From: Polyangiaceae bacterium | Lineage (GTDB): Bacteria > Myxococcota_A > Polyangia > Polyangiales > Polyangiaceae | DNA length: 52,949 nt | Direction of reading: 5' to 3' | Assembly: GCA_046351395.1 (NCBI GenBank) | Contig: JAXLYP010000017.1 | Coordinates: 193,508-246,456 of the forward strand | Shown here: piece after piece, positions 19,670 to 43,972 of the stretch | Layout of the letters: each line of letters starts with the position of its first letter | How positions within the stretch are numbered: position 1 is the first letter of the stretch | The notes under the pieces: generated by a model | Told to the model about the DNA's origin: nothing | What the model saw: only the letters and a program-made list of their open reading frames with translations | Databases searched by the model: none | Program-made: the position numbers and the translations under genes

Positions 19670-21042
19670 TCATGACTCGCTGGGCGAACAGGCATCCTCG
19701 CTCGCTCTGGGAGCCGTAAGAGACCTTGCGCCAAAGCACGAACGGCGCAGCGCGCGCTCGGCATGATTATCAGGGATCCACTTCAGGCTCGAAGGCGAAC
19801 GTGAGGAGGGCGGCCTTGTGTTCGAGTATGTCGAGGCAGGAGCCGGAGACGCCGCGCAGGCGCAGCCCCGCGCCGCGTTCGAGGAGTCCCTCGAACGCCA
19901 TCTGCGCTGGTCGCCATCCTCTGGTACTTGGCGCGTGAGGGTGCCGTCCCGCACCTTGTGCCAGGCGGCAGCACAAGGTGAGAGAGCAGAGAAGGTCCTC
20001 CCCGAGTTGGCGTCCCGCGTCCTTGCGTTCGGAGAAGGCGACGAACTTCCTGATGAGGTGCGCCCAGCAGATCTGCCGCCGCCCTGATGGCCCAGAAGCC
20101 GAACTGCGAGCCTCGGTCCGTCACCAAGGATCCCGGAGAGGGCCCATGAGCGCGGCGATTGTCCGCGACAAGCATCGGCGGTGACGAAGAACACAGCGAC
20201 GGACCGCGTTGCGATCGTCCAGAGCGCGGCATACAGGCCGGCGACTCGCCAGGTGCTTCCGTCCACGTGCTTCACGGGGTGCGCGCGGACGTAGCAGGCC
20301 GCGGCATCCACCGGGGCAGCGATAGCGTCGTTGATCCGCTCCTCGGCCTCGCTGAGGGCGCCGAGCGAGACTGGGATGCCGAAGATCTCGGAGAGGTACT
20401 CCCGGCAACTGTCGCGCCACTGTCCGCGCGCCGAGGAACAGCCGATGAACGCGAGCAGCCGGGGACCGAACATGTGGCTCGGGACGCTGCCGGCAGACTC
20501 GCCCACGTCGTCTTCCCGCAGTCCTTGCAACAGGCCCCGCCCATGACGATCTCGTGAACGTCCGGCTTGATCCTTCGGGGATGTCGACGACCTGATGCAG
20601 GCGCGGGTCGATCCCCTCCGCCGCGAGATTCCGTCCGCCGCATCCTCGACATCTCTTCGGCGCCAGCTTCGTCCGACGGGTCACCTTCTCGGGCGGGAAC
20701 AGCACGCGGGTGTTCGGCTTGTGTCCGGGCTGGCCGCCGCGACTTCGACCGGTCGGCTTCTTCTCGGGTCGAGTCCCAGGTAGATCGGTCGACGGAGGCT
20801 TGCCCGACTCCTCGAGTTCTGCCCCAGCTGCTGCTCGAGGTCGGCGACTCGCACCTTGAGCTGCGCGATCTCCGCGTCCTGCCCGCGATGATCGGTGTCG
20901 CGCTCCGCGACCATGGCAAGCAGCGCCGCGACCTGGGCTTCCAACTTCGCCAGACGCTTGCCGACCGAGGTCACCGACCCACTCGATCATGCGGCGATCC
21001 TCGTGTCGATCCCCGATCGCGTATGATCACATATGATCATGT
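19670..21042 (-). mobile_element. IS66-family transposase (TnpC) remnant with multiple frameshifts; possible imperfect terminal repeats at both ends
   Basis: Fragments in three minus-strand frames, in TnpC order: leucine zipper (LAKLEAQVAALLAMVAERD...LEQQLGQNSRSR, 20974..20681); zinc-finger region (RGGQPGHKPNTRVLFPPEKVTRRTKLAPKRCRGCGG...HQVVDIPE); DDE-core pieces (HVDGSTWRVAGLYAALW..., then LVTDRGSQFGF). AT-rich near-palindromic ends: catgattatcag (~19762) and tgatcacatatgatcatg (~21024-21042). Confidence 0.7.
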
Positions 21043-21719: not shown

Positions 21720-23159
21720 ATGAGCAACGCGCCGCGACGATCGTCGAGTCCACCCGATCCCAAAGAGGTCGCCCGGCGCTCCCTCGTCGAACGAGCGCTC
21801 GGGGTGATCACCGAGGTGAGGGCAGGCGAGGGGGGGACCGCACTCCTCATGACGCTCAATGTCTTTCTGCTGCTCACCGCATACTATCTCATCAAGCCGG
21901 TCCGTGAGGGCCTCATCGGGAGCGTGAAGCACGGCCCCGAGTACAAGAGCTACATGGGGGGCGCGGTCGCGCTCGCGCTCTTCGCCATCGTCCCGCTCTA
22001 CGGGATGCTCGCCGCGAGGCTGAAGCGGAACGTGCTCATCTCGAGCGTCTCGCTCTTCTTCGTCGCGAACCTCGTCGGCTTCTGGATGCTCGGCCGCCTC
22101 CCCTGGGTCGCGACCGAGACGGGGGCGACGGTCTATGCGCTCGCGTTCCTCCTCTGGGTGGGCGTGTTCAACCTCATGATCGTCGCGCAGTTCTGGGCGT
22201 TCGCCGCCGACGTGTACACCGACGAGCAGGGGAAGCGGTTGTTCGCGCTCATCGGTCTGGGCGCGTCCGTCGGCGCGGTGATGGGGAGCCTGGTCATGAA
22301 CCGCGTCGTGACCGAGCTCGGCACGGAGCACATGATGCTCGTCGCCGCCGTGACGCTCGCGCTCGCGACGGCGGTGACGCTGCTCATCCATCGGCGCGAG
22401 TCCCGGCGGCCGCGGGCGCCGGACCCGGAGAAGGAGCGGAAACAGCGCGAGGAGAAGGAGGCGAAGCAGAGCAGTCAGGGCGCGTTCTCGCTCGTGCTCC
22501 ACGACCGGTATTTGCTGCTCATCGCGGCGTTCACCGTGCTCTTCCAGATCGTGAACACCAATGGCGAGTTCATCCTCTCGAGCCTCGTGGCGGACGCGTC
22601 GCGCGCCGTGACCGAGACGCGAGAGGAGCAGAAGGCGTGGATCGCCTCGTACTACGGGAGCTTCTTTCTCTGGGTGAACATCGCGGGCGTGGCGATCCAG
22701 ACGTTCCTCGTCTCGCGGATCGTGAAGTGGGGCGGGCTCAAGGTCGGCCTCCTCATCTTCCCCGTCGTCGCGCTCATCAGCGAGGCGGCCATCGCGGTCG
22801 TCCCGGTGCTCCTCCTCGTTCGGATCGGCAAGACGGCGGAGAACTCGCTCGACTATTCGCTCAACAACACGCTCCGCAACGCCCTCTGGCTCCCCACGAC
22901 GACGCGCGCGAAGTACGTCGCGAAGCAGGCGATCGACAGCTTCGTGTCGCGCGTGGGCGACATGGGGTCGGCGCTCGCGATCTTCATCCTCATCGACGCG
23001 CTCCACTTGACCGTGCGAGCGGTCGCGACGCTCAACGCGTGCCTCGTCCTCGCTTGGATCTACGTGTCGATCGAGATCGTCCGCGAGAACGGCAAGCTCA
23101 CCGAGGACGCGAAGGGCAAAGCGCTTTCACGGCTGGAGGCGGCGGGGGCGAGCGCGTGA
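21720..23159 (+). CDS. TLC/NTT-family (Npt1/Npt2-like) nucleotide-transporter-like membrane protein
   Basis: N-terminal signature ...GVITEVRAGEGGTALLMTLNVFLLLTAYYLIKPVREGLIG.... About 12 predicted TM helices and a charged central loop (RRESRRPRAPDPEKERKQREEKEAKQ). The stop overlaps the GTG of the next gene (GTGA). Confidence 0.9.
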   Translation: MSNAPRRSSSPPDPKEVARRSLVERALGVITEVRAGEGGTALLMTLNVFLLLTAYYLIKPVREGLIGSVKHGPEYKSYMGGAVALALFAIVPLYGMLAARLKRNVLISSVSLFFVANLVGFWMLGRLPWVATETGATVYALAFLLWVGVFNLMIVAQFWAFAADVYTDEQGKRLFALIGLGASVGAVMGSLVMNRVVTELGTEHMMLVAAVTLALATAVTLLIHRRESRRPRAPDPEKERKQREEKEAKQSSQGAFSLVLHDRYLLLIAAFTVLFQIVNTNGEFILSSLVADASRAVTETREEQKAWIASYYGSFFLWVNIAGVAIQTFLVSRIVKWGGLKVGLLIFPVVALISEAAIAVVPVLLLVRIGKTAENSLDYSLNNTLRNALWLPTTTRAKYVAKQAIDSFVSRVGDMGSALAIFILIDALHLTVRAVATLNACLVLAWIYVSIEIVRENGKLTEDAKGKALSRLEAAGASA

Positions 23160-24653: not shown

Positions 24654-26060
24654 ATGACCGAAGCGCTACCCGACGACGCCGAGATCTTGGGAACGCTCGA
24701 TGAACTCATCGAGCGCCTTTCGAAGAGCAAGCGCGGCGCTGATCTCCGGAACGCGCTGCACGACGCGAAGCGCTTGAGGAGCGCGACGCTCAAGTGGGGC
24801 ATCATCCCGCCTCCGCCCGATGCGCGGCGCGAGCTGCTCGACCGCGTCGCGCAGCTCCTCGCGCTCGCGGCGGGTGCCCAGGCGGACGGGGACGACGGTG
24901 AGCGTCCGCCGGAGTCGGCGCGGTCGCGGTCTTCGAGGAAGGCGCGCGGCGCGGCCCTCGAGGAGAAGCCCGCGCGTGGCGCAGCGTCGCTCGGTTCGCG
25001 CATCCACGACGAGGCGACGAAGCCCGAGGGGCGGTTTCCGAGCATCCACGACGAGGAGACCGCGCCCCTCCCGAGCAGGCCGCCCACCGCGGCGGAGCGC
25101 CGACGAGGCAAGGCGCGCGCGGAGGGCGCGTATGCGAAGTCGGTGCACGACGAGGACACCGCGCCCGGGCCCGAGGTTCGTGCGGCGCAAGCGGTGGAGG
25201 CGCGCGTGATTCGCCGGCCCGAGATCGCCGACGAGGAGACGGTCCGCGAGGGCTATCGCAAGGCCGCTCCACCGAAGTCGTCTCCCACACCGGTGGCCGC
25301 GCCGCCGTCGAAGGCGCCGTCCGCGCCTCCGCCGAAGGCGCCCTCCCCGACGCCACCGAAGGTGCCGTCTGCGCCTCCGCCGAAGGCGCCCTCCGCACCG
25401 CCGCCGAAGTCGCCGTCCGCGCCCCCTGCACCGCACCCCAAGCTCCAGCGGACGCAGAGCGGCGCGGTCGCGCTCGCGCCGCTCCAGGACCTCGACCTCA
25501 GCGACCTCGAGCTCTTCGCGGCGCCGCCGAGCAAGAGCTCGCTCTCGGCGAGCCCGCAGCTACCGCCGATCGTCATGCCCGCATTGTCCGACGGGGGCGC
25601 CGCGCCCAAGTCGAAGATCGAGGGGTTCAGCACGTCGGTCTCCACGCCCAAGATGGCCGCGGTGCGGCCGCCCCCGTCCAAGCCGACCGAGCCGCTGCCC
25701 GCCGTGAAGGAGGCTTCGGGCGTCACCATCGTGCGCGGGAATGCGTCGGCGTGGCGGCCGCTCCCCGCCGCTCCCGCGGTGCTCGTGCGCACCGTCCAGT
25801 CGACGGCGACGGGCGTGATCGCGCTCGTCAAGCTGCCCGTCTCGGCGCGTGTCCCCTCGAAGCGAGTGGACGGCGAGGTGCAGCTCTTCGTGTTGATTGG
25901 AGGCATCACGCTCGGTCCGCACGAGCTCGCCGCGGGCGACGCGTGTCGCCTCGAGAAGGGCTCGACGCGACAAGCGATCACGACGACGGGCCCCGCGACG
26001 ATCCTCTACGTGGGCCCGAGCCTCGGCGGCGACACGACCGATCCACAGGCCGACGTCTGA
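24654..26060 (+). CDS. Three-part protein: N-terminal helical domain, Pro/Ala/Ser/Lys-rich disordered repeat linker, C-terminal ~140-aa globular domain
   Basis: MTEALPDDAEILGTLDELIERLSK.... Three [RS][IV]HDE[AED]T[KA]P repeats (RIHDEATKPEG / SIHDEETAPLPS / SVHDEDTAPGP), five APPPKAPS-type repeats, then GVTIVRGNASAWRPL...FVLIGGITLGPHELAAGDACRLEKG. Confidence 0.65.
   Translation: MTEALPDDAEILGTLDELIERLSKSKRGADLRNALHDAKRLRSATLKWGIIPPPPDARRELLDRVAQLLALAAGAQADGDDGERPPESARSRSSRKARGAALEEKPARGAASLGSRIHDEATKPEGRFPSIHDEETAPLPSRPPTAAERRRGKARAEGAYAKSVHDEDTAPGPEVRAAQAVEARVIRRPEIADEETVREGYRKAAPPKSSPTPVAAPPSKAPSAPPPKAPSPTPPKVPSAPPPKAPSAPPPKSPSAPPAPHPKLQRTQSGAVALAPLQDLDLSDLELFAAPPSKSSLSASPQLPPIVMPALSDGGAAPKSKIEGFSTSVSTPKMAAVRPPPSKPTEPLPAVKEASGVTIVRGNASAWRPLPAAPAVLVRTVQSTATGVIALVKLPVSARVPSKRVDGEVQLFVLIGGITLGPHELAAGDACRLEKGSTRQAITTTGPATILYVGPSLGGDTTDPQADV
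25300..25435. repeat. Tandem ~24-nt coding repeats (ccgccgaaggcgccctccgcgcct-like) encoding (A/S)PPPK(A/V/S)PS x5
   Basis: Periodicity visible directly in the sequence. Confidence 0.8.
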
Positions 26061-26075
26061 GCGCGGAGGGAACGG

Positions 26076-27797
26076 GTGGCCGACGCGCAGACCGAACGCT
26101 GCGAGGGATGTGGCGCCGAGCTGACCGCGGGCGCCCGCTTCTGCGCGACGTGTGGGCGCCCGGTCGCCGCGCTCGCTCCAACCGAGCTGCACGCCCCGAG
26201 GTTCGACGCGACCCCCGCGATGCGCCTCGCGCCGGGGACGATGCTGGGGAGTTACCGGATCGAGGCGCTCCTCGGCGAAGGCGGGATGGGCGTCGTCTAC
26301 CGCGCGCGCGACGAGGTCATGCACCGCACGGTCGCGCTCAAATGTCTGCACACGAACCTCGCGGGGGACGCGGGGATCCGCCGGCGCTTCGGGCGAGAGG
26401 CGCGCGCGCTCGCGACGGTCGTGCACCCGAACGTCGTGCGCGTGTACGACTTCGTCGATCACGAGCACGTCCCCGCGATCGTCATGGAGCTCGTCGACGG
26501 ACCGAGCCTGTCCGCGCACGTCGCGGCGTGGCGTGAGTCCGTCCCGTTCGAGGAGATCCGCGGCCTCTTCGGGCAGATCCTCGCCGCCGTCGGCCACGGG
26601 CACGACAACGGCATCATCCACCGCGATCTCAAGCCAGACAATGTGCTGCTCGCGCGGGAGGCGCGCGGGCTCCGCCCGAAGGTCGTGGATTTCGGGCTCG
26701 CGAAGATCCTCGAGGGGACGACGTACACCGTCACGGGCGCCCTCCTCGGGACGTGCCGGTACATGGCGCCCGAGCAGGTGCAGGACCCGGAGCGCGCGGA
26801 TCTGCGCGCCGACATCTATTCGCTGGGCGTCACCCTCTATCAGCTCGTGACGGGGAGCGTGCCCTTCGATCGGGCGACCCACTTCGCGGTCATGATGGCG
26901 CACGTCAACGAAGCACCGCGCCCGCCATCCTCGATCCGCGCGGACGTCCCTGCGCTCCTCGAGCGCCTCGTCCTCGACGCGCTCGCGAAGGATCCGAGCG
27001 CGCGCCCTCCCTCGTGCGCCGTGTTCCGCGAGCGGCTCGACGAGGCGCTCGCGGCGTACGAGCCGGAGGACGCACCGCCGGGCTCGCTCCCGCGCGTCGT
27101 GCGAGGGGCGGAGACGGCAGATCTCGTGCTCGTGCCCGAGGGTCCGTTTCTCTTTGGCCCGCACCGGCGCCGCGTCGATTTGGACGCGTTCTACATCGAT
27201 CGGACGCCGGTCACGAACGGCGAGTTCGCCGCGTTCGTGAGGGCCACGCGATATGCGCCGTCGGACGAGGGGAGCGGACGGTTCCTGCATCACTTCCGGG
27301 GTGGGAAGGCGCCCGTCGGCGCGGAGCATCACCCGGTGACGCACGTCTCGTGGACCGACGCGCGGGCGTACGCGACGTGGGCGGGCAAGCGACTCCCGAC
27401 GGAGGCGGAGTGGGAGAAGGCCGCGCGAGGGACGGACGGACGGAGGTACCCATGGGGCCGCGCGGAGCCCACCGCGGATCGCGCGAACTACGGGAAGCTG
27501 AACGGTGGAACGACGCCCGTCACCGCGCACGCCGCGGGAGCGTCACCGTACGGTGTGTTGGATCTTGCGGGCAATGTCTGGGAGTGGTGCGAGGACGTCG
27601 ACGATCCCGCGTTTTACCTCGACGGTCCTACGCGGAACCCGAAGAACGCGCCGCGCGCGGGCGAGCGCGCGCGGCACGTGGTGCGCGGCGGCTCCTGGCT
27701 CTACGGCCCGCGCGCCCTGCGCACGGTGTACCGCGCGAGCTTCGAAGCGCACTATCGCGTCGCGAGCGGCGGATTCCGCTGCGCGCGCTCCGCCTGA
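26076..27797 (+). CDS. Ser/Thr protein kinase with N-terminal zinc ribbon and C-terminal FGE-sulfatase (SUMF1/formylglycine-generating-enzyme-like) domain
   Basis: SD ggaggg lies 5 nt upstream of GTG 26076. CEGCGAEL...CATCG. Kinase motifs GSYRIEALLGEGGMGVVYRA, VALK, HRDLKPDNVLL, DFG, APE. FGE-like domain RTPVTNGEFAAFV...HPVTHVSWTDARAYATWAGKRLPTEAEWEKAARG...GNVWEWC...RGGSW. Confidence 0.9.
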   Translation: MADAQTERCEGCGAELTAGARFCATCGRPVAALAPTELHAPRFDATPAMRLAPGTMLGSYRIEALLGEGGMGVVYRARDEVMHRTVALKCLHTNLAGDAGIRRRFGREARALATVVHPNVVRVYDFVDHEHVPAIVMELVDGPSLSAHVAAWRESVPFEEIRGLFGQILAAVGHGHDNGIIHRDLKPDNVLLAREARGLRPKVVDFGLAKILEGTTYTVTGALLGTCRYMAPEQVQDPERADLRADIYSLGVTLYQLVTGSVPFDRATHFAVMMAHVNEAPRPPSSIRADVPALLERLVLDALAKDPSARPPSCAVFRERLDEALAAYEPEDAPPGSLPRVVRGAETADLVLVPEGPFLFGPHRRRVDLDAFYIDRTPVTNGEFAAFVRATRYAPSDEGSGRFLHHFRGGKAPVGAEHHPVTHVSWTDARAYATWAGKRLPTEAEWEKAARGTDGRRYPWGRAEPTADRANYGKLNGGTTPVTAHAAGASPYGVLDLAGNVWEWCEDVDDPAFYLDGPTRNPKNAPRAGERARHVVRGGSWLYGPRALRTVYRASFEAHYRVASGGFRCARSA

Positions 27798-27863
27798 GGC
27801 CGGGGCGCCGAGCGCGCTTTTTCAGAGGCTCACCGCCCGCGGGGACCGTACACTCGGCCTCGC

Positions 27864-28361
27864 ATGCTCGATCGACCCCAGATCCTCGCCGAGCTCGCGC
27901 GCACCCGGACCCAACCGGTGGACGTGGAGGAGCTCCGCTCGCTCGGGTTTCCTCCGCACTATCTCGCGCTCGTCGCGGAGGTCGGGGTGCAGGAGATCGC
28001 GCCCGACTTCCTGATGCCGACGTCGATGCACGTCGCCGTCGAGAACCTCCGGAACGCGAAGCGACTCGGCTCGTACCTCGTCTTCGGGGTCTCCGCGTCG
28101 GGGGACATGTGGCTGCTCGACAAAGATCCGTCGAGGGATCGCGTCGCGTTCCTCCCGCAAGAAGAGGAGAGCGGGCCGCGGGTCGAGCTCGGCATCGGCC
28201 TCGACCAGTGGTTCGAGCTCGCGCTGTTCATGCGCACGCACGAGGCCGCGAAGGCGCGCGCGAAGAGCGAGAGCGAGAAGCGCGCGCTGAAGGCGCGCGC
28301 CAAGAAGTTCATCGAGACGATGTCGCGGACGCTCGCGGAGGCGTACCCGTACCTCCTCTGA
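27864..28361 (+). CDS. SUKH (Smi1/Knr4)-family immunity-like protein
   Basis: LRSLGFPPHYLALVAEVGVQE...SYLVFGVSASGDMWLLDKDP...LDQWFELALFM matches the SUKH core pattern. Confidence 0.65.
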   Translation: MLDRPQILAELARTRTQPVDVEELRSLGFPPHYLALVAEVGVQEIAPDFLMPTSMHVAVENLRNAKRLGSYLVFGVSASGDMWLLDKDPSRDRVAFLPQEEESGPRVELGIGLDQWFELALFMRTHEAAKARAKSESEKRALKARAKKFIETMSRTLAEAYPYLL

Positions 28362-28363
28362 AC

Positions 28364-29629
28364 GTGGGCAACGGAACTTCGATCCCCGCTCACGCGGAGC
28401 TCGGCGACTCGCACAACTTCGGGCGCCGCGTCTCGATCTCGGGCGATCGGGTGCGGAAGCCCCGCACGCTGTTCTGGGAGTGGCTGGTCCTCGCGGCAGA
28501 CAGTCCGCTGCGCCTCGCGCTCGATCGCATGGCGCGCGAGGCGCCGGCGTCGTCCGGCCTCGACGCGAACGCGTTCTCGTTCTTGCCTTCGCTGGCGTTC
28601 TCGGGGCACGAGTCGCGCGAGGGAGGCGAGGTCGAGCGCGTCGACCTGGATCCGCTGCCCGCGCTCTCGGACGGCGAGAGGACCCGATTTGCGAGGCTCG
28701 TGGGCCGCTCGATCGCCCTCTTCGCGTGGCTCGGGGTGTCCGACCTGCACTGGGAGAACCTCGTGCTCGGCGTCCGGAGGGACGGTGGAGTGGTGTTCGG
28801 CCCGCTGGACGTCGAGATCATCCTGAGCGACCTCTCGCTCCCGACGGAGACGAAGCTGCTCCCGGACGCGGATCCGGAGTACGCGGCGCTCTGTCGGCAC
28901 GCGTGCGGTGTGCGCCGGGCCCTGCCGTGGCTCGGCAAGCCGATCCGCGCGGGGGATCTCGTCGCGATGGCCTCGGACTATCGCGCCACGCTCGCGCTCC
29001 TCGACCGACAGTCCAACGCGGTCGCGGAGGCGCTCGCGGGCCTACCGGGGCTCGCGGACGCGCCGATCCGCGTTTGTCTGCGCAGCACGGGCGACTACGT
29101 CGAGGCGCGACGCGCCGTGCGCCGAAGCGCGCTCTGGCCTCCCTTGCTGGACGCCGAAGCGGAGCAGCTCGCGCGCGGAGACATTCCCTATTTCTTCCGT
29201 CTGTACGGGCGCCCCGGGATTCACTGGTTCCCCGAGCCGGAGTTGAAAGAGCTCGGGACGCTGCCTTCGAAGGGGGACGTCCCCAAGCTCGATAGGCTGC
29301 TCTCCGTGGCCAAAGGCCTCCGCTCGAGCTCGCGAAAGAGCCTCCGCGAAGAGGGCCTGTTCGCGCTGCTGGGCGCGTTCGATCATCCGTCGATGGGAGG
29401 AAAGTACGAAGATCGCGGCCTCGAGGTCGCGTTCCAGCGGCGCTCCATCGTGCTGACGCTGAAAGGGGGAGAGGAGCTGCGTGCGCACCGCGATTTGGGG
29501 GCGTACGTCGGGAGCGTCTATTTGCCGTGCACCTGCGGGGAGGTCCGCACGGTGTTCGTCCCTCCCGTGACCACCTGCGAAGGCGGGACCGCGGCTCCGC
29601 CACCTGCGAAGGTCAAACCGGGTCGGTGA
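28364..29629 (+). CDS. Standalone LanM-N-terminal-dehydratase-like (DUF4135-type, lipid-kinase-like) domain protein
   Basis: GTG lies 2 nt after the SUKH stop. Motif ...FAWLGVSDLHWENLVLGVRRDGGVVFGPLDVEIIL... resembles the DLHxENhh...P.hhDhE catalytic motif of class II lanthipeptide-synthetase dehydratase domains. No LanC-like cyclase domain follows. Confidence 0.6.
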   Translation: MGNGTSIPAHAELGDSHNFGRRVSISGDRVRKPRTLFWEWLVLAADSPLRLALDRMAREAPASSGLDANAFSFLPSLAFSGHESREGGEVERVDLDPLPALSDGERTRFARLVGRSIALFAWLGVSDLHWENLVLGVRRDGGVVFGPLDVEIILSDLSLPTETKLLPDADPEYAALCRHACGVRRALPWLGKPIRAGDLVAMASDYRATLALLDRQSNAVAEALAGLPGLADAPIRVCLRSTGDYVEARRAVRRSALWPPLLDAEAEQLARGDIPYFFRLYGRPGIHWFPEPELKELGTLPSKGDVPKLDRLLSVAKGLRSSSRKSLREEGLFALLGAFDHPSMGGKYEDRGLEVAFQRRSIVLTLKGGEELRAHRDLGAYVGSVYLPCTCGEVRTVFVPPVTTCEGGTAAPPPAKVKPGR

Positions 29630-29636
29630 TCGCGGA

Positions 29637-30266
29637 TCAAGGGCAGCCCCCATCGATCACGAGTCCAGTCCGGCCGAGCGGCTCGGCGTCGGGCGTCCAG
29701 TCGAGCCCGTCCGCGAACGACATCACGCCCTCCACGTCCACCGCGCAGGGGGGAGCTGAAATCGCGAGCTTCCCACCGAGCGAGGTCGCGTTCGCGATCT
29801 CGCCGATGGGTGTAGGCGGACCGATCCCGGTCCACGGCGCGCAGTCGTCCGCGTCGTGGGTGACGCGCGCGAACTTGATGAGATCGAGCGGGTATTGCCC
29901 GAGATCGACGACCTCCATCGAGAGCGCGTCGAGCCCGAGCTGGAAGCAGAGATCCCGCGCGTCGTCGCGCTTGAGGATCGCGACGGCCCCGGCGTTCGTG
30001 AAGAGGTTGATGGCGCTGTAGGCGTCGCAGGGACCCGCGCACGATCCACTCCCCGTGCTGCTCGACGCGCTCGCGCTCCCGGCTCCACTTCCGGTCGCGC
30101 TCGAGCCGACGGTCGTTCCGCCCCCATCATCCTCGAGCGTGGCGACGTCGCGACACGCGCCGAGGAGCACAATCGCGATCACGAGGGTCGCCCGCGGCGC
30201 CGTGCGCTCGCGAAGGAGTGCTCCGAGGGAGGTCCCTTGGGGTGCGGTTTCGCCGCGCGCCCTCAT
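29637..30266 (-). CDS. Lipoprotein (Gly/Ser-rich linker plus Cys-containing domain), translationally coupled to the TssC-like gene
   Basis: ATG 30266..30264 overlaps the TssC stop (ATGA). ...TLVIAIVLLGAC (lipobox), GSSATGSGAGSASASSSTGSGSCAGPCDAYSAINLF... Confidence 0.6.
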   Translation of the reverse strand: MRARGETAPQGTSLGALLRERTAPRATLVIAIVLLGACRDVATLEDDGGGTTVGSSATGSGAGSASASSSTGSGSCAGPCDAYSAINLFTNAGAVAILKRDDARDLCFQLGLDALSMEVVDLGQYPLDLIKFARVTHDADDCAPWTGIGPPTPIGEIANATSLGGKLAISAPPCAVDVEGVMSFADGLDWTPDAEPLGRTGLVIDGGCP

Positions 30267-31607
30267 GGATCGAGCGTCCCTTTCAAGCTGAGCGTGAAGA
30301 ACGCGCCCATGTGCTTGAAGTGCGGGCGCAGCCTCAGATCGAAGGAGCGCCACGCCTCGCCGTCGGTCGAGTCGCGCACGATCACCTGCACCTTCCGCAG
30401 CGGCCTTCGCCCCCGGAGCGCGGGGGGCACGACCTCCCGATCGGCGACGTATTGGCCCGCCCAGTCGTTGAGCTCGCGTTCGTCGTCCACTGCCGTCGTC
30501 GCCCATGATGGCTTTTCGACACGCCGAGGGGGCGCGCCCGGGACGAGCGCCTCTGGGTCGTTGATTTGGAAGGAGCGGTGCACCACCTTCAGGTACTGAC
30601 CAATCCTCGTGGAGATGAACACGTAGGGGAGCTCGGTGCCGAGCCGGTGGTTGAACTCGGCGGCGCGCGCCTCCTCCGAGTTGCCGAAGCGCTTGGGCTT
30701 CATGAGCGACCGCGCCGAGAAGAAGCCCGCGGACGTCGCGTCGACGAAGGAGAGGGGAATGAACCCCTCCTCCGACAGATCGTACTCGGTCCGCTCGCCG
30801 AGGTTCGCGTCGAGCGGCGAGATCGCGCCCTCGGGCGCGCGCGGCAGGTCCTCGATCAGGCCGTCCGCGCGCCCGACGATGTTCGGACACCAGCGGTACT
30901 TCGCGAACGACGACGTGAGGCGCGTCGCGAACGCAACGACCGCGAGCCCCCAAGCGAGATCTTCGGCGCGAGCGGTCTCGTCGTACGTGAAGCCCCCGAG
31001 CGTCTCGGTCGCCTCACGGGCAACGGCGAAGGGAGCGCGGAGGAGGAATCGGCCCACGGTGAGCCCCAGGAGGGATGCGCTCGCCTGGTCTCGCAGTGCA
31101 GCGAACGCGCGGTGATGCGCGGCGAAGTGCGCAAGAAGATCGACCGTGCCGATCGCGCGGCGGTCCTCGATCCCGAAGAAGCCTGGTGAGGCGGCCGCGA
31201 TGAAGGGGGCGAGGGAGCACGTCCCGACCTCCGCGATGCGCTCGAGGAGCGTGATGTCCTCCGGCGTGGGGTCGAACTCGAAGTCGGCGAGGATCGCCCC
31301 GTACGGTCGGTCGGTCGCGCCTCGGGCCGTCACCGCAAAGAACGCGCTCTCGCGCGCGGGCGCGCCGGAGCGCACGAGGTCGACGCGGAGCTCGTCGAGC
31401 GTACACGGGTAGAACGCGATCTCGATGTTCTCGCGGAAGTTCGTCCGCTCGACCAGGAACGCGAGGCTCCGCCACGCCCGCTCGAGGCGCTGGAACTTCG
31501 GGTGATGGAGGATCGCGTCGAGCTGCGCGGCGATCCGACGGTCCAGCGAGTCGATGATCGCGTCCGCGCGCGTGGCGGCGAGATCGACGAGGAGCGCATC
31601 ATCGTGC
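30263..31607 (-). CDS. T6SS contractile-sheath large-subunit (TssC/VipB)-like protein, N-terminally short
   Basis: Full-length colinear similarity to VipB: AQLDAILHHPKFQRLERAWRSLAFLVERTNFRENIEIAF..., FAKYRWCPNIVG, LPYVFISTRIGQYLKVVHR, LRLRPHFKHMGAFFTLSLKGTLDP*. Only ~30 aa precede the ILHHP motif, against ~80 in V. cholerae VipB. No tssB lies upstream; the divergent DTW gene starts 68 bp away. Confidence 0.85.
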
Positions 31608-31675
31608 CGTACCATCCTGGCATTCGGACCTGCGCGACCTCGCTTGTCAAGGCACGGTGCGCCGATGAAGGCGCC

Positions 31676-32371
31676 GTGATAACGAGCGTCGTGGACGCGA
31701 CCCCGCCCGCCCCGAAACCCGACTCGACGCCTTGCGAGGTGTGCCGGCGTCCTCGCTTCGCGTGCGTGTGCGACCGCGTCGTCGCTTACCCCACCGAGCG
31801 GCGCGTGTTGATCCTGCAGCATCCGCAGGAGCAGGACGCGCTCCTCGGCACCGCGCAGCTCCTCGCGGCGAGCTTGCCGGCGGCGCGCATCGTCATCGGG
31901 TTGAGCTGGCCGAACCTCGGCGCGGCGCTCGGCGAGCCCGAGGTGGACGTGAAGAAGTGGGCGGTGTTGTTCCCCGATCGCGAAGCGGAAGGCGAGGGCG
32001 TCGCCACGCGCCGCGGAGCTCCGGTGGATCCGCGCGCGCTCTCGGGGATCGTCGTGCTCGATGGCACGTGGTCGAAGGCGAAGGCGCTCTGGTGGCGGAA
32101 CCCGTGGCTCACGAAGCTGCACCGCATGACGCTGAAGCCGAAGCAGCCCTCGATCTACGGCAGGCTGCGAGCGGAGCCGAAGCGCGAATACGTCTCCACG
32201 CTCGAGTCCGTGGGCGCCGCGCTCACGCTCTCGGGCGAACCCCCGGAGATCGAAGCGGGCCTCTCGCGCGTCTTTCGGACGCTCGTGCAGCGTGTCCGAG
32301 ACGCGGACGTCGCCCCCGAGGAGCGCAGGCTTTCGAAGAGCACGCGGCCCCCGCGACGACGGCCGGGCTGA
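31676..32371 (+). CDS. DTW-domain protein (tRNA aminocarboxypropyltransferase-like)
   Basis: Cys-rich N-terminus (CEVCRRPRFACVCDRV) and DTW motif (IVVLDGTWSKAKALWWRNPWL). GTG start at 31676 (alternative 31691). Confidence 0.7.
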   Translation: MITSVVDATPPAPKPDSTPCEVCRRPRFACVCDRVVAYPTERRVLILQHPQEQDALLGTAQLLAASLPAARIVIGLSWPNLGAALGEPEVDVKKWAVLFPDREAEGEGVATRRGAPVDPRALSGIVVLDGTWSKAKALWWRNPWLTKLHRMTLKPKQPSIYGRLRAEPKREYVSTLESVGAALTLSGEPPEIEAGLSRVFRTLVQRVRDADVAPEERRLSKSTRPPRRRPG

Positions 32372-41797: not shown

Positions 41798-42376
41798 CTA
41801 TTGGAACCGGAGCTCGCGGACGAACGCGTAGGTCTTGGGCGCGAGCCGCAGCTGAAAGCTCTGTCCGCCCTCGTTCGCGCGCGACTCGAGGTCTTTTTTG
41901 TAGCGCACGGTGACGACCACGTTCCCCTCGGCGTCGGTTCCTTCGATCGTGTGCGTCCAGGCGTCGGCGGGCCACGCTCGCTTGTCGGAGACGTACGCTT
42001 CGACGGCGATCGCGACGCGCGCGTCGTCGATGTCGTCGGGCCACGGCATGACGAGTTTGCTCTCGCCGGGCGCGATGGGGCCGACGTGATCGAGGACGGA
42101 TGCGTACTTGGGATCGCCCGGCGCGTACTTCCTTTGCGCGGGCGCGGGCCGGAAGAGATCGAGGACGATCGTCCCGTCCGGGAGCATCCTCGCTTGACCA
42201 ATCGCTTCCATGGGACCTCCGCTCGACGCTGGGGCCGATGGTAGCCGCCCTTCCGCGCTTGGCGCGACGGACGCACCCGCGGGCGCCGACGGGGATCCCG
42301 TGGGTGTCCGAGGATCGGCGGAGGAGCAGGCGAAGAACGTGAGGGCGAGGGCGAGGGCCGAACCCGGGAAACGCAT
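41798..42376 (-). CDS. Lipoprotein, function unknown
   Basis: MRFPGSALALALTFFACSS. Lies 8 nt downstream of the hydroxylase stop. Confidence 0.6.
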   Translation of the reverse strand: MRFPGSALALALTFFACSSADPRTPTGSPSAPAGASVAPSAEGRLPSAPASSGGPMEAIGQARMLPDGTIVLDLFRPAPAQRKYAPGDPKYASVLDHVGPIAPGESKLVMPWPDDIDDARVAIAVEAYVSDKRAWPADAWTHTIEGTDAEGNVVVTVRYKKDLESRANEGGQSFQLRLAPKTYAFVRELRFQ

Positions 42377-42384
42377 GCGCGGTT

Positions 42385-43050
42385 CTACGGGCTCGCGGCC
42401 GCCGCGGTCTGCCCGGCTCCGTCGTTTCCTGTGGGCTCGACGACCGGGCTCGCCCCGGTGTCGCGGGCGCGACCCACGAGCTCGTAGTCGTGCTCGAATT
42501 CGGCGCGGACGGCGCCGCGCTCGTCGACCAACCAGGTCGGGGCGACGTGGCGGGGCACTTTGATGCGCTCGGACGGCACGTGACTCCGGAACGCGACGTC
42601 CCAGAGCGGGCTCGTCACACCGTGGTTGAGGCGGGGCGTCTTGTGGTGGTGCAAGAGGTGATGCCGGCGCGCCCAACGCCCGTACGCCGTGGTCGGGGGC
42701 CGCGTGTGGATCCAGCGGTGGAGGACCTCGTACCCGCCATAGACGAGGGAGAAGCCGGCGGCGAACGAGAGGGCGCGACGCGGTCCCACGAGGGGCGTGA
42801 GGGCGCCGCCGAGGAGAGGGATAGCGACCGCGGCGGCGCGCACTTTGCGCGCGGTGGGCGCGAAATAGGTCGGGGTCGCGTGGTGGGCGAGGTGCTCGGC
42901 GTTGAACTCCGCCGCGAGCCCCGAGGGCGTGAGCTTCTCGAGGAGGTTCGGCTTGAGCGCGCGCTTCGGTCCGTGACCGACGAACCGATGAATCGCGTAT
43001 TCGCTCGCCGACCAGCCGAGCCCGCCGAGCGCCATCCAGAGTATCGACAT
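42385..43050 (-). CDS. Fatty-acid hydroxylase / sterol-desaturase-superfamily membrane protein
   Basis: His boxes HRFVGH, EHLAHH, HRWIHT, HHLLHHH. SD gaaggga upstream; the ATG shares one nucleotide with the TetR stop (TGATG). Confidence 0.75.
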   Translation of the reverse strand: MSILWMALGGLGWSASEYAIHRFVGHGPKRALKPNLLEKLTPSGLAAEFNAEHLAHHATPTYFAPTARKVRAAAVAIPLLGGALTPLVGPRRALSFAAGFSLVYGGYEVLHRWIHTRPPTTAYGRWARRHHLLHHHKTPRLNHGVTSPLWDVAFRSHVPSERIKVPRHVAPTWLVDERGAVRAEFEHDYELVGRARDTGASPVVEPTGNDGAGQTAAAASP

Positions 43051-43826
43051 CACACACGTCCCTTCTTCTTCTTGATCCCAGGCTTCGATGCGGCGGGCTC
43101 GGTCTCTCCGGGCCGCGCGGTGCGAGTCAGTTGGTGCGCGGCGGAGAGCCGCGCGGGGGTCGCCCCCCAGCTCGTGAGCAGCGCGCCGGACGCGAAGCGA
43201 CCAATGTCTGCGACGCTCGGCGCGCGGCGCGCGACGCGACGCGCTTTGTCCATGCAGTGAGCCCCGTGGAGCGCGGACCAGAACGCGTAGACGCGCGCGT
43301 TCGCGTCCCCGGGGGAGAGCGCCTCGGTCTCTTGAGCGAGCGCGAAGACGGACTCCATGCGCTCGAGGAAGGCCCCGAGGAGCGGAGCGGTCTTCGTCGC
43401 CTCTTCGTCGGAGAGGAGTTGTCGGGGGTCCCCGAGGAGGCGCGCGACGAGGCGCCACTCGTGCGGGTGCGTATCGGGGAGAGAGAGGTAGAGGTCGGCG
43501 AGCGTGAGGAGCGTCGCGAGGCTCGCCGTAGCGGGTGCGACCTTGCCGAGCGTCGCGGTGAGGGTCTCGAGCTCGGATTCGAAGTGCGCGCTGATCTCGC
43601 GCACGGCGCGCCGCTGCAGGGCGGCGATGAGCGCGTCCTTGGAAGGGAAGTAGCGGTAGATGGCCGTCGTCACGAGCCCGAGGGTCTGCGCCACGCGCTG
43701 GAGGGTCAGCCCGTCGAGATCGTCGGACTCGAGGATCTCCATCGCGCGGTCCAGGATCGCCTCCGTGCGGAGCTCCCGCCGGTCGCTCGCCCGCGTCGTG
43801 GCGTCGCCGTTGTGAATCATGTTCAC
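43050..43826 (-). CDS. TetR-family transcriptional regulator
   Basis: HTH LTLQRVAQTLGLVTTAIYRYFPSKDAL. Start is GTG 43826 or the ATG 2 codons in. A poly-Lys tail precedes the stop. Confidence 0.85.
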   Translation of the reverse strand: MNMIHNGDATTRASDRRELRTEAILDRAMEILESDDLDGLTLQRVAQTLGLVTTAIYRYFPSKDALIAALQRRAVREISAHFESELETLTATLGKVAPATASLATLLTLADLYLSLPDTHPHEWRLVARLLGDPRQLLSDEEATKTAPLLGAFLERMESVFALAQETEALSPGDANARVYAFWSALHGAHCMDKARRVARRAPSVADIGRFASGALLTSWGATPARLSAAHQLTRTARPGETEPAASKPGIKKKKGRV

Positions 43827-43845
43827 AATAGTGAACCACGTTCAC
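43812..43845. promoter_or_regulatory. Two adjacent 15-bp palindromes, GTGAA-N5-TTCAC (gtgaatcatgttcac and gtgaaccacgttcac), overlapping the TetR start codon: candidate autoregulatory operator
   Basis: Read directly from the sequence; perfect 5-bp inverted half-sites, twice, 4 bp apart. Confidence 0.7.
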
Positions 43846-43972
43846 GTTGGTGTCAAGCGGGGAGGGATGAAAGGGTTGGGGAGGGATGAACGAGTTGGGG
43901 CGTACGCTCGTCAGACGCCATGCGAACGTTCCCCGCGTCGCGGGATTCCTCCCAGCACTCGAACGACCCCGG

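What the first reader, a model, noticed from the sequence alone, without database searches (positions are those of the whole stretch)
24654..29629. Cluster of a Thr-containing repeat protein, a zinc-ribbon Ser/Thr kinase fused to an FGE-like domain, a SUKH immunity-like protein and a standalone LanM-dehydratase-like (DUF4135) protein
Four co-oriented, closely spaced genes. The first protein carries three [RS][IV]HDE[AED]T[KA]P repeats and five APPPKAPS repeats in a disordered linker. The DUF4135-type domain (SDLHWENLV…PLDVEII) is the module that, in class II lanthipeptide synthetases, phosphorylates and eliminates Ser/Thr, yet here there is no LanC cyclase and no obvious short precursor peptide. 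It sits 2 nt after an SUKH-type gene, a family typical of toxin-immunity pairs. One possibility is a protein-targeted Ser/Thr phosphorylation and dehydration system acting on the repeat protein; another is a polymorphic-toxin-like module.
Basis: inference. Interest (0 to 1): 0.7.

Follow-up and report, generated by a model that had tools for sequence, protein, structure and literature searches.

The report
Stand-alone mini-LanM gene, not a four-gene system
The four neighbouring genes are real but are not a conserved system; the notable one encodes a stripped-down version of the enzyme domain that dehydrates serine and threonine in lantibiotics, and across its bacterial order this gene normally sits next to a tRNA-modifying enzyme gene instead.

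Summary
Four co-oriented genes lie at 24654-29629, with gaps of 15, 66 and 2 nt:
- g1 is a repeat protein.
- g2 is a zinc-ribbon/Ser-Thr kinase/FGE fusion.
- g3 has a SUKH fold.
- g4 is a 421-aa DUF4135 protein.

g4 is a true homologue of the LanM dehydratase domain (hhalign 98%, E 1e-12). All nine CylM residues needed for phosphorylation and phosphate elimination are invariant in its family.

None of 80 species-level loci with a g4 homologue has g1 or g3 within 10 kb. Kinases there are only 30-39% identical and scattered. In the closest relative, g3 is followed by DNA that lies at 41.8 kb in this window, so the g3|g4 junction is a synteny break.

The conserved partner of g4 is a TapT-like DTW gene immediately downstream, seen in 65 of 78 informative genome loci and 50 of 55 metagenome loci. 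In this window an inserted tssC-like/lipoprotein pair displaces it by 2.1 kb.

A sister clade without DTW carries short Ser/Thr-rich peptide ORFs just upstream, which suggests a peptide substrate.

Verdict: g4 is a new minimal, cyclase-less variant of a known enzyme kind. Its substrate is unknown, and the proposed four-gene system is not supported.

The parts
24654..26060 (+). g1: 468-aa protein. It has a conserved ~70-aa N-terminal helical domain, a disordered linker with three [RS][IV]HDExT[KA]P motifs (nt 24999, 25041, 25140), and a weak C-terminal ChrR-type cupin. It is not part of the g4 unit.
   Evidence: ORF and repeats. Cupin_7 scores only E 0.15 here but is precomputed for homologues. 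The family has 11 members. The HDExT motifs are conserved in the three closest homologues.
25297..25423 (+). 24-nt tandem array of 5.3 copies, encoding the [AT]PP[PS]K[ASV]PS repeats of g1.
   Evidence: Tandem Repeats Finder. The array is absent from g1 homologues, so it is a lineage-specific expansion.
25491..25511 (+). LDLSDLE motif in g1 (aa 280), followed by the Ser-rich stretch LFAAPPSKSSLSAS. It resembles the motif in candidate precursor peptides of the peptide-associated mini-LanM clade. This is an unexplained lead.
   Evidence: The motif is conserved in P0130-P0132. About 0.003 occurrences are expected in g1-g3 from background, but the test is post hoc.
26076..27797 (+). g2: zinc-ribbon + Hanks-type Ser/Thr kinase + FGE-sulfatase domain fusion.
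   Evidence: Pfam and NCBIfam. A 79% ortholog lies next to the g3 ortholog only in the closest relative (L085). PADLOC hits are to generic kinase models.
27864..28361 (+). g3: 165-aa SUKH-fold protein from a very small family (8 members).
28362..28363 (.). Synteny breakpoint. In the closest relative, the DNA after the g3 stop corresponds to window 41798 onward.
   Evidence: blastn of L083-L086 against the window. No boundary repeats were found.
28364..29629 (+). g4: 421-aa stand-alone minimal LanM-type dehydratase (DUF4135) domain. Key residues are the P-loop GD15-S-H17-NFGRR, K32-PR, D127-L-H129-WE-N132, D149-V-E151, R236-x5-T242 and G272-DIPYF. A C-terminal beta domain carries invariant C389, C391 and C405.
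29637..30266 (-). Lipoprotein-like gene with lipobox LLGAC. Its ATG overlaps the tssC-like stop by 4 nt. It is part of the insertion that splits g4 from DTW.
   Evidence: No family hit. Absent from all other loci.
30263..31615 (-). Orphan TssC/VipB-like T6SS sheath gene (450 aa), inserted between g4 and DTW.
   Evidence: Pfam VipB E 9e-64. TIGR03355 scores 302.7 bits against a cutoff of 271.5. Coordinates. Absent from the other 161 loci.
31691..32371 (+). DTW-domain (TapT-like) gene, the conserved partner of g4. The start is uncertain (GTG at 31676 or 31691).
   Evidence: Pfam DTW E 2.7e-38. PDB TapT 9kyt E 1e-5. 75% identical to the gene directly downstream of the Minicystis rosea g4 homologue. 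Adjacency statistics.

Best explanation
The interval is a lineage-specific juxtaposition of unrelated genes, not a system.

The feature worth noting is g4. It is a stand-alone 'mini-LanM': the ATP-dependent kinase/phospho-lyase core of the class II lanthipeptide synthetase dehydratase domain. It lacks the N-terminal capping helices and the LanC cyclase.

Inferred mechanism, by homology to CylM:
- Mg-ATP binds between a small N-lobe (P-loop D15/H17, K32) and the C-lobe.
- D127/H129 activate a Ser/Thr hydroxyl for phosphoryl transfer.
- N132 and D149 hold the metal.
- R236/T242 together with D15/H17 then promote beta-elimination of phosphate, giving dehydroalanine or dehydrobutyrine.

The family is present across Polyangiales. 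Its conserved genomic partner is a TapT-like DTW gene (SAM-dependent aminocarboxypropyl transferase) about 10-60 nt downstream. In this genome the pair has been split by a tssC-like/lipoprotein insertion, and a rearrangement has placed g4 2 nt after the unrelated SUKH gene g3.

The substrate in Polyangiales is unknown. I infer a peptide or protein Ser/Thr, because DTW-less sister-clade genes are preceded by 23-35-aa ORFs with a shared acidic motif and a Ser/Thr-rich tail.

Shown: homology, residue conservation, synteny pattern and breakpoints. Inferred: enzymatic activity, substrate class, and any functional link to DTW.
For: Homology to LanM:
- hhalign of the g4 family against six LanM N-domains gives probability 98.0%, E 1e-12, 323 columns, g4 1-368 aligned to CylM 238-660.
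- The residue map is D15/H17 to D252/H254, K32 to K274, D127/H129/N132 to D347/H349/N352, D149 to D364, and R236/T242 to R506/T512. The roles of these CylM residues are in PMC4550811.
- All are invariant in 38 family members and nearly so in a 69-sequence alignment at 28% mean identity.
- Fragments and relatives map colinearly onto Pfam DUF4135, with E down to 1e-13.

Synteny:
- tblastn finds no g1 or g3 in 80 loci.
- DTW is directly downstream in 65 of 78 informative genome loci and in 50 of 55 metagenome loci.
- The breakpoint after g3 is shown.
- g3 and g1 have other contexts elsewhere.

Sister clade:
- Small ORFs with Shine-Dalgarno sites lie upstream in L104, L098, L106 and L116.
- Their enzymes are only 32-41% identical to each other.
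- These four loci are four of the five metagenome loci without DTW.
Against: - No biochemical data exist for any member of the family.
- The Pfam score of g4 itself is only just above threshold (33.5 against 29). Sequence and profile searches against PDB sequences did not retrieve LanM.
- The AF2 model is weak in places (mean pLDDT 66.5, and below 50 for residues 156-181 and 234-314), so the geometry of the elimination site is not modelled reliably.
- No conserved small ORF was found next to the Polyangiales genes, so the peptide-substrate inference rests on a distant clade.
- Conserved adjacency to DTW could reflect inherited gene order among related genomes rather than shared function. 12 loci lack it.
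- In this genome the 2-nt spacing means g4 is probably co-transcribed with g3, so a local functional link cannot be excluded on synteny alone.
Confidence: 0.7

Rival explanations
1. One reading: the four genes form a protein-targeted Ser/Thr phosphorylation and dehydration system, in which g2 and/or g4 modify the repeat protein g1.
For: - The genes are tightly spaced and co-oriented, with gaps of 15, 66 and 2 nt.
- g4 has a full catalytic set.
- g1 carries conserved Thr-containing motifs.
- g1 also has an LDLSDLE + Ser-rich segment that resembles the candidate precursor peptides of the sister clade. About 0.003 such hits are expected in g1-g3.
- In the closest g1 relative, a co-oriented gene starts 8 nt after g1.
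Against: - No g1 or g3 lies within 10 kb of g4 homologues in 80 species.
- g1 has 11 homologues and g3 has 8, whereas the g4 family spans an order.
- More distant g1 and g3 homologues lack a kinase-FGE or DUF4135 neighbour.
- The g3|g4 junction is a rearrangement breakpoint.
- The motif match is post hoc and lies in an acidic low-complexity region.
Confidence: 0.07
2. g4 and the DTW protein work together on tRNA or another RNA. For example, the kinase-fold protein might regulate TapT or use tRNA or aminoacyl-tRNA as its substrate.
For: - Same-strand adjacency with gaps mostly of 10-60 nt, in 65 of 78 genome loci and 50 of 55 metagenome loci, while every other neighbour varies.
- The DTW protein matches solved TapT and keeps the DGTW motif and the N-terminal Cys cluster.
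Against: - No fusion of the two genes was found. The apparent overlaps were alignment read-through past stop codons.
- 12 Polyangiales loci and this window lack direct adjacency.
- The sister clade has no DTW and instead has peptide ORFs.
- From my own knowledge, LanM-type enzymes are known only on peptides, with no RNA precedent.
- No tRNA gene lies in the window.
Confidence: 0.13
3. A polymorphic-toxin-like pair, with g3 as a SUKH immunity protein and g4 as its toxin. A variant links it to the nearby tssC-like gene as a T6SS effector/immunity pair.
For: - g3 has the SUKH fold. Its best structural matches include T6SS and Rhs immunity proteins.
- The g3-g4 gap is 2 nt.
- A TssC-like gene lies 0.6 kb downstream of g4.
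Against: - The g4 family is conserved at 52-67% identity as a single gene across Polyangiales, without g3.
- g3 relatives are not next to toxins.
- g4 has no trafficking, PAAR, Rhs or toxin domain.
- The usual gene order of toxin then immunity is reversed here.
- The tssC-like gene is an orphan insertion unique to this genome.
Confidence: 0.03
4. g4 is a kinase only, for example a regulatory protein kinase or a small-molecule kinase, and the LanM elimination residues are kept for phosphate binding rather than for lyase chemistry.
For: - In CylM, D252 and H254 also contact the nucleotide phosphate.
- No cyclase or other consumer of dehydro-residues is encoded nearby.
Against: R236 and T242 align to CylM R506 and T512, which are needed specifically for elimination. 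Both are invariant across a family with 28% mean identity.
Confidence: 0.15

Closest known systems
Dehydratase domain of class II lanthipeptide synthetases (LanM; CylM, PDB 5DZT; Pfam DUF4135)
   Same: The two are homologous (hhalign 98%). They share the P-loop GDxHxxG(R/K), the KP(R/K) lysine, the DLHxEN catalytic loop, the DxE metal site, the Rx5TxxY elimination motif and the GDIPxF motif. The fold is kinase-like.
   Different: g4 is about 400 aa, whereas LanM proteins are about 900-1050 aa. The alignment starts at CylM residue 238, so the capping helices and much of the N-lobe are missing. g4 has a shorter KA-domain region, no LanC cyclase domain, no adjacent LanA precursor or LanT, and its own C-terminal beta domain with three invariant Cys. 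Its conserved neighbour is a DTW gene.
LanMbC / CcaM of the dehydrazoles (PMC10676384)
   Same: It is a divergent DUF4135 dehydratase used outside classical lanthionine formation. It makes dehydro-residues that are not cyclised.
   Different: CcaM is over 1000 aa, is fused to a class III-type cyclase domain that it needs for activity, and sits in a YcaO-containing RiPP cluster. That study excluded DUF4135 proteins under 500 aa from its network.
PI3K/PI4K/PIKK lipid-kinase-like catalytic domains
   Different: Sequence identity is 9-14%. g4 carries LanM-specific motifs (the P-loop D/H and Rx5T) that these kinases lack. There are no FAT/FATC or lipid-binding elements.
TapT/YfiP tRNA-uridine aminocarboxypropyltransferase (DTW domain)
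   Same: The partner gene at 31691-32371 matches Pfam DTW (E 2.7e-38) and solved TapT (E 1e-5). It keeps the D-x-T-W motif.
   Different: Pairing of a DTW gene with a DUF4135 gene did not appear in the papers I searched. NCBIfam assigns it no equivalog. Its substrate has not been tested.
SUKH (SMI1/KNR4) immunity proteins
   Different: The Pfam match is below threshold (E 0.26). No toxin gene is adjacent here or in relatives. g3 has an extra C-terminal helical hairpin.
Orphan LanM-like proteins without precursor genes (e.g. Clostridium CA_C0082, PMC10301443)
   Same: These are LanM-family genes found without the rest of a lanthipeptide cluster (abstract seen).
   Different: The abstract describes them as class II (lanM) synthetase-like genes, and I did not read the paper. 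g4 is only the catalytic core of the dehydratase domain.

Membership tests
Class II lanthipeptide synthetase (LanM) | Homology to the DUF4135 dehydratase domain | tested here: met
Class II lanthipeptide synthetase (LanM) | Phosphotransfer residues (CylM K274, D347, H349, N352, D364) | tested here: met
   K32, D127, H129, N132 and D149 are aligned and invariant. Their roles are described in PMC4550811.
Class II lanthipeptide synthetase (LanM) | Phosphate-elimination residues (CylM D252, H254, R506, T512) | tested here: met
   D15, H17, R236 and T242 are aligned and invariant.
Class II lanthipeptide synthetase (LanM) | C-terminal LanC-like zinc cyclase domain | tested here: not met
   The protein ends at 421 aa. 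No LANC_like hit appears in Pfam or NCBIfam. TIGR03897 scores 18.4 bits against a cutoff of 304.
Class II lanthipeptide synthetase (LanM) | N-terminal capping helices and full N-lobe (CylM 5-237) | tested here: not met
   The alignment begins at CylM 238. Only 12 residues precede the P-loop in g4.
Class II lanthipeptide synthetase (LanM) | Adjacent LanA precursor peptide gene | tested here: not met
   No conserved small ORF lies next to g4 in the window or in 80 Polyangiales loci. Candidate peptides are found only in the DTW-less sister clade.
Class II lanthipeptide synthetase (LanM) | ATP-dependent dehydration of Ser/Thr in a peptide | not testable with these tools
   This needs an enzyme assay and mass spectrometry.
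SUKH / SMI1-KNR4 superfamily (g3) | SUKH alpha/beta fold | tested here: met
SUKH / SMI1-KNR4 superfamily (g3) | Sequence-profile match above the family threshold | tested here: not met
   PF09346 scores 12.4 bits against a cutoff of 25.4, E 0.26.
Polymorphic toxin-immunity module | A toxin-domain gene adjacent to the immunity gene, with the pairing recurring in other genomes | tested here: not met
   g3 relatives have globin, BolA or guanylate-cyclase neighbours. g4 homologues lack g3. No toxin or trafficking domains were found.
Ser/Thr kinase-FGE fusion (g2) | Hanks-type kinase domain plus FGE-sulfatase domain in one protein | tested here: met
   Pkinase E 3e-48, FGE-sulfatase E 1.4e-54, Zn ribbon E 8e-5.
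TapT / DTW-domain aminocarboxypropyl transferases (partner gene) | DTW domain with the (D/E)x(T/S)W motif | tested here: met
   PF03942 scores 132 bits. The sequence contains LDGTWSKAK. It matches TapT 9kyt at E 1e-5. The motif definition is from PMC10491745.
TapT / DTW-domain aminocarboxypropyl transferases (partner gene) | Formation of acp3U47 in tRNA | not testable with these tools
   This needs tRNA mass spectrometry.
Type VI secretion system locus | TssC together with the other core genes (TssB etc.) | tested here: inconclusive
   TssC scores above the NCBIfam cutoff. Its upstream neighbour is the divergent DTW gene and its downstream neighbour is a lipoprotein, so no adjacent tssB exists. 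The rest of the window was not screened.

The most novel reading that the evidence does not exclude
The ~350-420-aa mini-LanM proteins are an uncharacterised class of stand-alone Ser/Thr dehydratases with two lifestyles.
- A peptide-associated clade makes short linear dehydro-peptides, encoded just upstream and possibly sensed by the neighbouring SBP_bac_5/histidine-kinase genes.
- A Polyangiales clade is coupled to a TapT-like DTW enzyme. It would act on a protein or on a translation-related substrate.

In this genome the substrate might include g1, through its leader-like LDLSDLE + Ser-rich segment.
Probability: 0.15. Interest if true: 0.75.

Novelty: new variant of a known kind. Interest (0 to 1): 0.45.

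Why it matters
If active, this family would show that the LanM kinase/lyase chemistry works in about 400 residues, without capping helices, a cyclase or a leader-binding platform. That would define a minimal dehydratase useful for enzyme engineering.

It would also open a search for dehydro-amino-acid-containing peptides or proteins in Polyangiales, which are prolific natural-product producers. DUF4135 mining has passed over short proteins: one study set a 500-aa minimum length.

The unexplained, strongly conserved pairing with a tRNA aminocarboxypropyl transferase is a testable lead to a link between the two enzymes.

For the scan itself, the result is a caution. Tight spacing and co-orientation in one genome produced an attractive four-gene system that comparative genomics does not support.

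Tried and rejected
- phmmer of g4 and hmmsearch of the family profile against PDB sequences found no LanM. The homology only appeared with Pfam, profile-profile and fold comparison.
- Apparent g4-DTW overlaps of -600 to -850 nt looked like fusions. They were tblastn alignments reading through stop codons.
- A search for a conserved small ORF or the IDLDSIE-type motif next to Polyangiales g4 genes found nothing beyond low-complexity noise.
- No repeats mark the boundaries of the 13.4-kb block between g3 and 41798.
- ORFs at 19.6-21 kb looked to me like a degraded transposase, but Pfam found nothing.
- PADLOC hits to g2 (PD-T4-6, mad6, PglW) cover only the generic kinase domain, and none of the other genes hit. 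A defence-system reading was therefore dropped.
- The promoter and terminator scan was uninformative at 70% GC.
- No tRNA genes lie in the window.
- The afdb50 fold library was unavailable.
- The contig with the closest g1 relative had no retrievable DNA, so the gene after it could not be identified.
Full report
**Source and gene calls.** The window is 70% G+C. It comes from a Polyangiaceae MAG, whose public proteins U0414_27395, _27405 and _27410 match g1, g3 and g4 exactly. The interval holds four + strand genes:
- g1, 24654-26060
- g2, 26076-27797
- g3, 27864-28361
- g4, 28364-29629 (GTG start, 2 nt after the g3 stop)

**Checking the observation.**
- g1 has RIHDEATKP, SIHDEETAP and SVHDEDTAP plus a degenerate EIADEETVR. 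A 24-nt x 5.3 tandem array at 25297-25423 encodes the PPxKxPS repeats.
- g2 is Zn-ribbon + Pkinase (E 3e-48) + FGE-sulfatase (E 1.4e-54).
- g4 hits Pfam DUF4135 at 33.5 bits, just above the gathering score of 29.

**What g4 is.**
- Sequence searches against PDB did not find LanM.
- I fetched six genuine LanM genes from plasmids: CylM, LctM, LtnM1, LtnM2, an Anabaena LanM and a Rhizobium LanM. I aligned their N-domains and compared that profile with the g4 family alignment. hhalign gave 98.0% probability and E 1e-12 over 323 columns, with g4 1-368 matching CylM 238-660.
- The alignment places D15/H17 on CylM D252/H254, K32 on K274, D127/H129/N132 on D347/H349/N352, D149 on D364, and R236/T242 on R506/T512. 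The GDIPYF motif falls on GDIPIF.
- The CylM paper shows that K274, D347, H349, N352 and D364 are needed for phosphorylation, and that D252, H254, R506 and T512 are needed for phosphate elimination (PMC4550811).
- All nine residues are invariant in 38 close family members. They are invariant or nearly so in 69 sequences with 28% mean identity.
- Fragments of g4 and distant relatives map colinearly on the DUF4135 profile.
- g4 lacks the capping helices and most of the N-lobe (CylM 5-237). It also lacks the cyclase domain and has a shorter KA region. It adds a small C-terminal beta domain with invariant C389, C391 and C405.
- g4 is thus a minimal, cyclase-less LanM dehydratase core that appears catalytically complete.

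**Is the four-gene cluster a system?** No.
- The g4 family is large: 842 or more relatives at E up to 0.001, the best 120 of them 60-67% identical, and 504 representatives at the 50% clustering level. It is present across Polyangiales, including Minicystis rosea and Polyangium species.
- In 80 loci, one per species, with 10 kb on each side, tblastn finds no g1 and no g3. Kinases there are only 30-39% identical to g2 and sit at scattered positions and on either strand. That is what the abundant kinases of these genomes would give by chance.
- g3 belongs to a family of 8.
- In the closest relative (86% identity), the order is g2 ortholog (79%), a globin gene that is absent here, g3, and then DNA that in this window lies at 41798-43857. 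The 13.4 kb beginning with g4 is therefore not at that junction in the relative. The g3|g4 boundary is a synteny breakpoint.
- The 57%-identical g3 homologues lie between BolA and a MASE7-guanylate cyclase gene.
- g1 belongs to a family of 11. Homologues at 45-47% identity are followed by a convergent LTD-domain gene, and a more distant one by an oxidase gene. In the closest relative a co-oriented gene follows g1 after 8 nt, but it could not be identified.

**The real partner of g4.**
- Clustering the neighbours of g4 homologues revealed one recurrent gene, a ~200-230-aa + strand ORF directly downstream. It is a DTW-domain protein (Pfam E 2.7e-38) that matches the solved tRNA-uridine aminocarboxypropyltransferase TapT (E 1e-5).
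- It is adjacent in 65 of 78 informative genome loci. After correcting alignment artefacts, the gaps are about -20 to +170 nt, typically 10-60 nt. It is also adjacent in 50 of 55 metagenome loci with room downstream.
- In the window the DTW gene lies at about 31691-32371, 2.1 kb from g4. Between them, on the opposite strand, are a TssC-like gene (30263-31615; TIGR03355 above cutoff) and a lipoprotein gene whose start overlaps its stop (29637-30266). Neither occurs in any other locus. This looks like a lineage-specific insertion.
- No g4-DTW fusion was found.

**A sister clade with peptides.**
- Distant family members from lower-G+C contigs lack DTW (one cluster includes a Bdellovibrionales MAG). 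They have SBP_bac_5 and histidine-kinase genes downstream.
- Immediately upstream they carry a 23-35-aa ORF with a Shine-Dalgarno site:
  - MEAQNQTEFEVIDLDSIEATTVISSSTVGTF
  - MENVKIIDLDSIENNAAQLLSTRTPITRPINDQSE
  - MNYEIINIDVIEAEANVSGTSIN
  - MSDFQWIDLSDVEAGSDVLFTTDTM
- The associated enzymes are only 32-41% identical to one another. These four loci are four of the five DTW-less metagenome loci.
- The pattern of a shared acidic motif followed by a Ser/Thr-rich tail is what a leader and core peptide would look like. I take it as indirect support that the family acts on peptide Ser/Thr. I derived the motif from these same sequences, so its enrichment is not an independent test.
- No such ORF accompanies the Polyangiales genes.

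**An unexplained coincidence.** A relaxed form of the motif occurs once in the window, in g1. LDLSDLE at aa 280 is followed by LFAAPPSKSSLSAS, and it is conserved in the closest g1 homologues. Background frequency (7 other hits in 1.68 Mb x 6 frames) predicts about 0.003 hits in g1-g3. The test is post hoc, the region is acidic and of low complexity, and g1 is far too narrowly distributed to be the general substrate. I keep it as a low-probability lead only.

**Mechanism and rivals.**
- Most likely, g4 is an ATP-dependent Ser/Thr kinase/phospho-lyase acting on an unidentified peptide or protein. Its position after g3 results from rearrangement.
- The last two are disfavoured by synteny and by the absence of toxin features.

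**Comparison with known systems.**
- g4 works like, and is homologous to, the LanM dehydratase domain.
- It fails three defining features of LanM synthetases: the cyclase domain, the capping N-terminal region and an adjacent precursor. It should not be filed as a lanthipeptide synthetase.
- The closest published variant is the DUF4135-cyclase fusion CcaM of the dehydrazoles. The network analysis in that study excluded proteins under 500 aa (PMC10676384).
- Fifteen papers in the library mention DUF4135. In the two I opened and in the titles and abstracts of the other listed papers, none deals with a stand-alone ~400-aa form or a DTW pairing.

**Verdict.** The domain-level inference is right and the system-level interpretation is not supported. 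What remains is an uncharacterised, order-wide, minimal variant of a known enzyme domain with an unexpected conserved neighbour. It is of moderate interest.

Noticed in passing
L104 3835-3930, L098 4877-4984, L106 3915-3986, L116 2701-2778, L172 1498-1581: Short ORFs (23-35 aa) lie directly upstream of DTW-less mini-LanM genes. Most have Shine-Dalgarno sites. They share an (I/L)(D/N)(L/I)(D/S)x(I/V)E motif followed by a Ser/Thr-rich tail. SBP_bac_5 and histidine-kinase genes lie downstream. This may be a new small RiPP-like or signalling-peptide locus.
   Followed up: partly
window 29637-31615 (- strand): An orphan TssC/VipB-like sheath gene is translationally coupled (ATGA overlap) to a lipoprotein gene. 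The pair is inserted between g4 and its usual DTW partner. No tssB is adjacent, and the pair is absent from all 161 other loci.
   Followed up: partly
window 25491-25511 (g1 aa 280-286): An LDLSDLE motif followed by a Ser-rich stretch resembles the candidate precursor peptides of the sister clade. It is conserved in the closest g1 homologues.
   Followed up: partly
L182 3293-5248: A single open reading frame joins a GNAT acetyltransferase domain to a mini-LanM domain. The frame runs straight into the LGDSHNFGRR P-loop with no stop. It could be a genuine fusion or an assembly error.
   Followed up: partly
L085 1088-1486 compared with window 27798-27863: The closest relative has a bacterial-globin gene between the g2 and g3 orthologues. 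The window has only a 66-nt spacer there.
   Followed up: yes
L087-L091: The 57%-identical g3 (SUKH-fold) homologues are consistently flanked by a BolA gene upstream and a MASE7-guanylate cyclase gene downstream.
   Followed up: no
window 21720-23159 (+): A membrane protein matches both MFS_1 and the TLC ATP/ADP transporter family (E about 1e-16 each).
   Followed up: no
window 19670-21000 (- strand): Several overlapping ORFs in different frames looked to me like a frameshifted transposase remnant. Pfam gave no significant hit.
   Followed up: partly
L121 and L127, directly upstream of the g4 homologue: The upstream ORF ends in a VGPEGGWS...LRAETA-type sequence. From memory this resembles the rRNA methyltransferase RsmE. 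No tool was used to check it.
   Followed up: no
L103 1-4618 (Rhizobium plasmid pRlX3): A 754-aa gene annotated lanM sits after MoaD/ThiS, ThiF and SAM-methyltransferase genes rather than in a classical lanthipeptide cluster.
   Followed up: no
L045, L050, L051, L054, downstream of the g4 homologue (- strand): In four of the Polyangiales loci that lack DTW, the downstream neighbour is a conserved convergent gene with a cupin-like LYLPPGFAHHG motif. It was not identified further.
   Followed up: no
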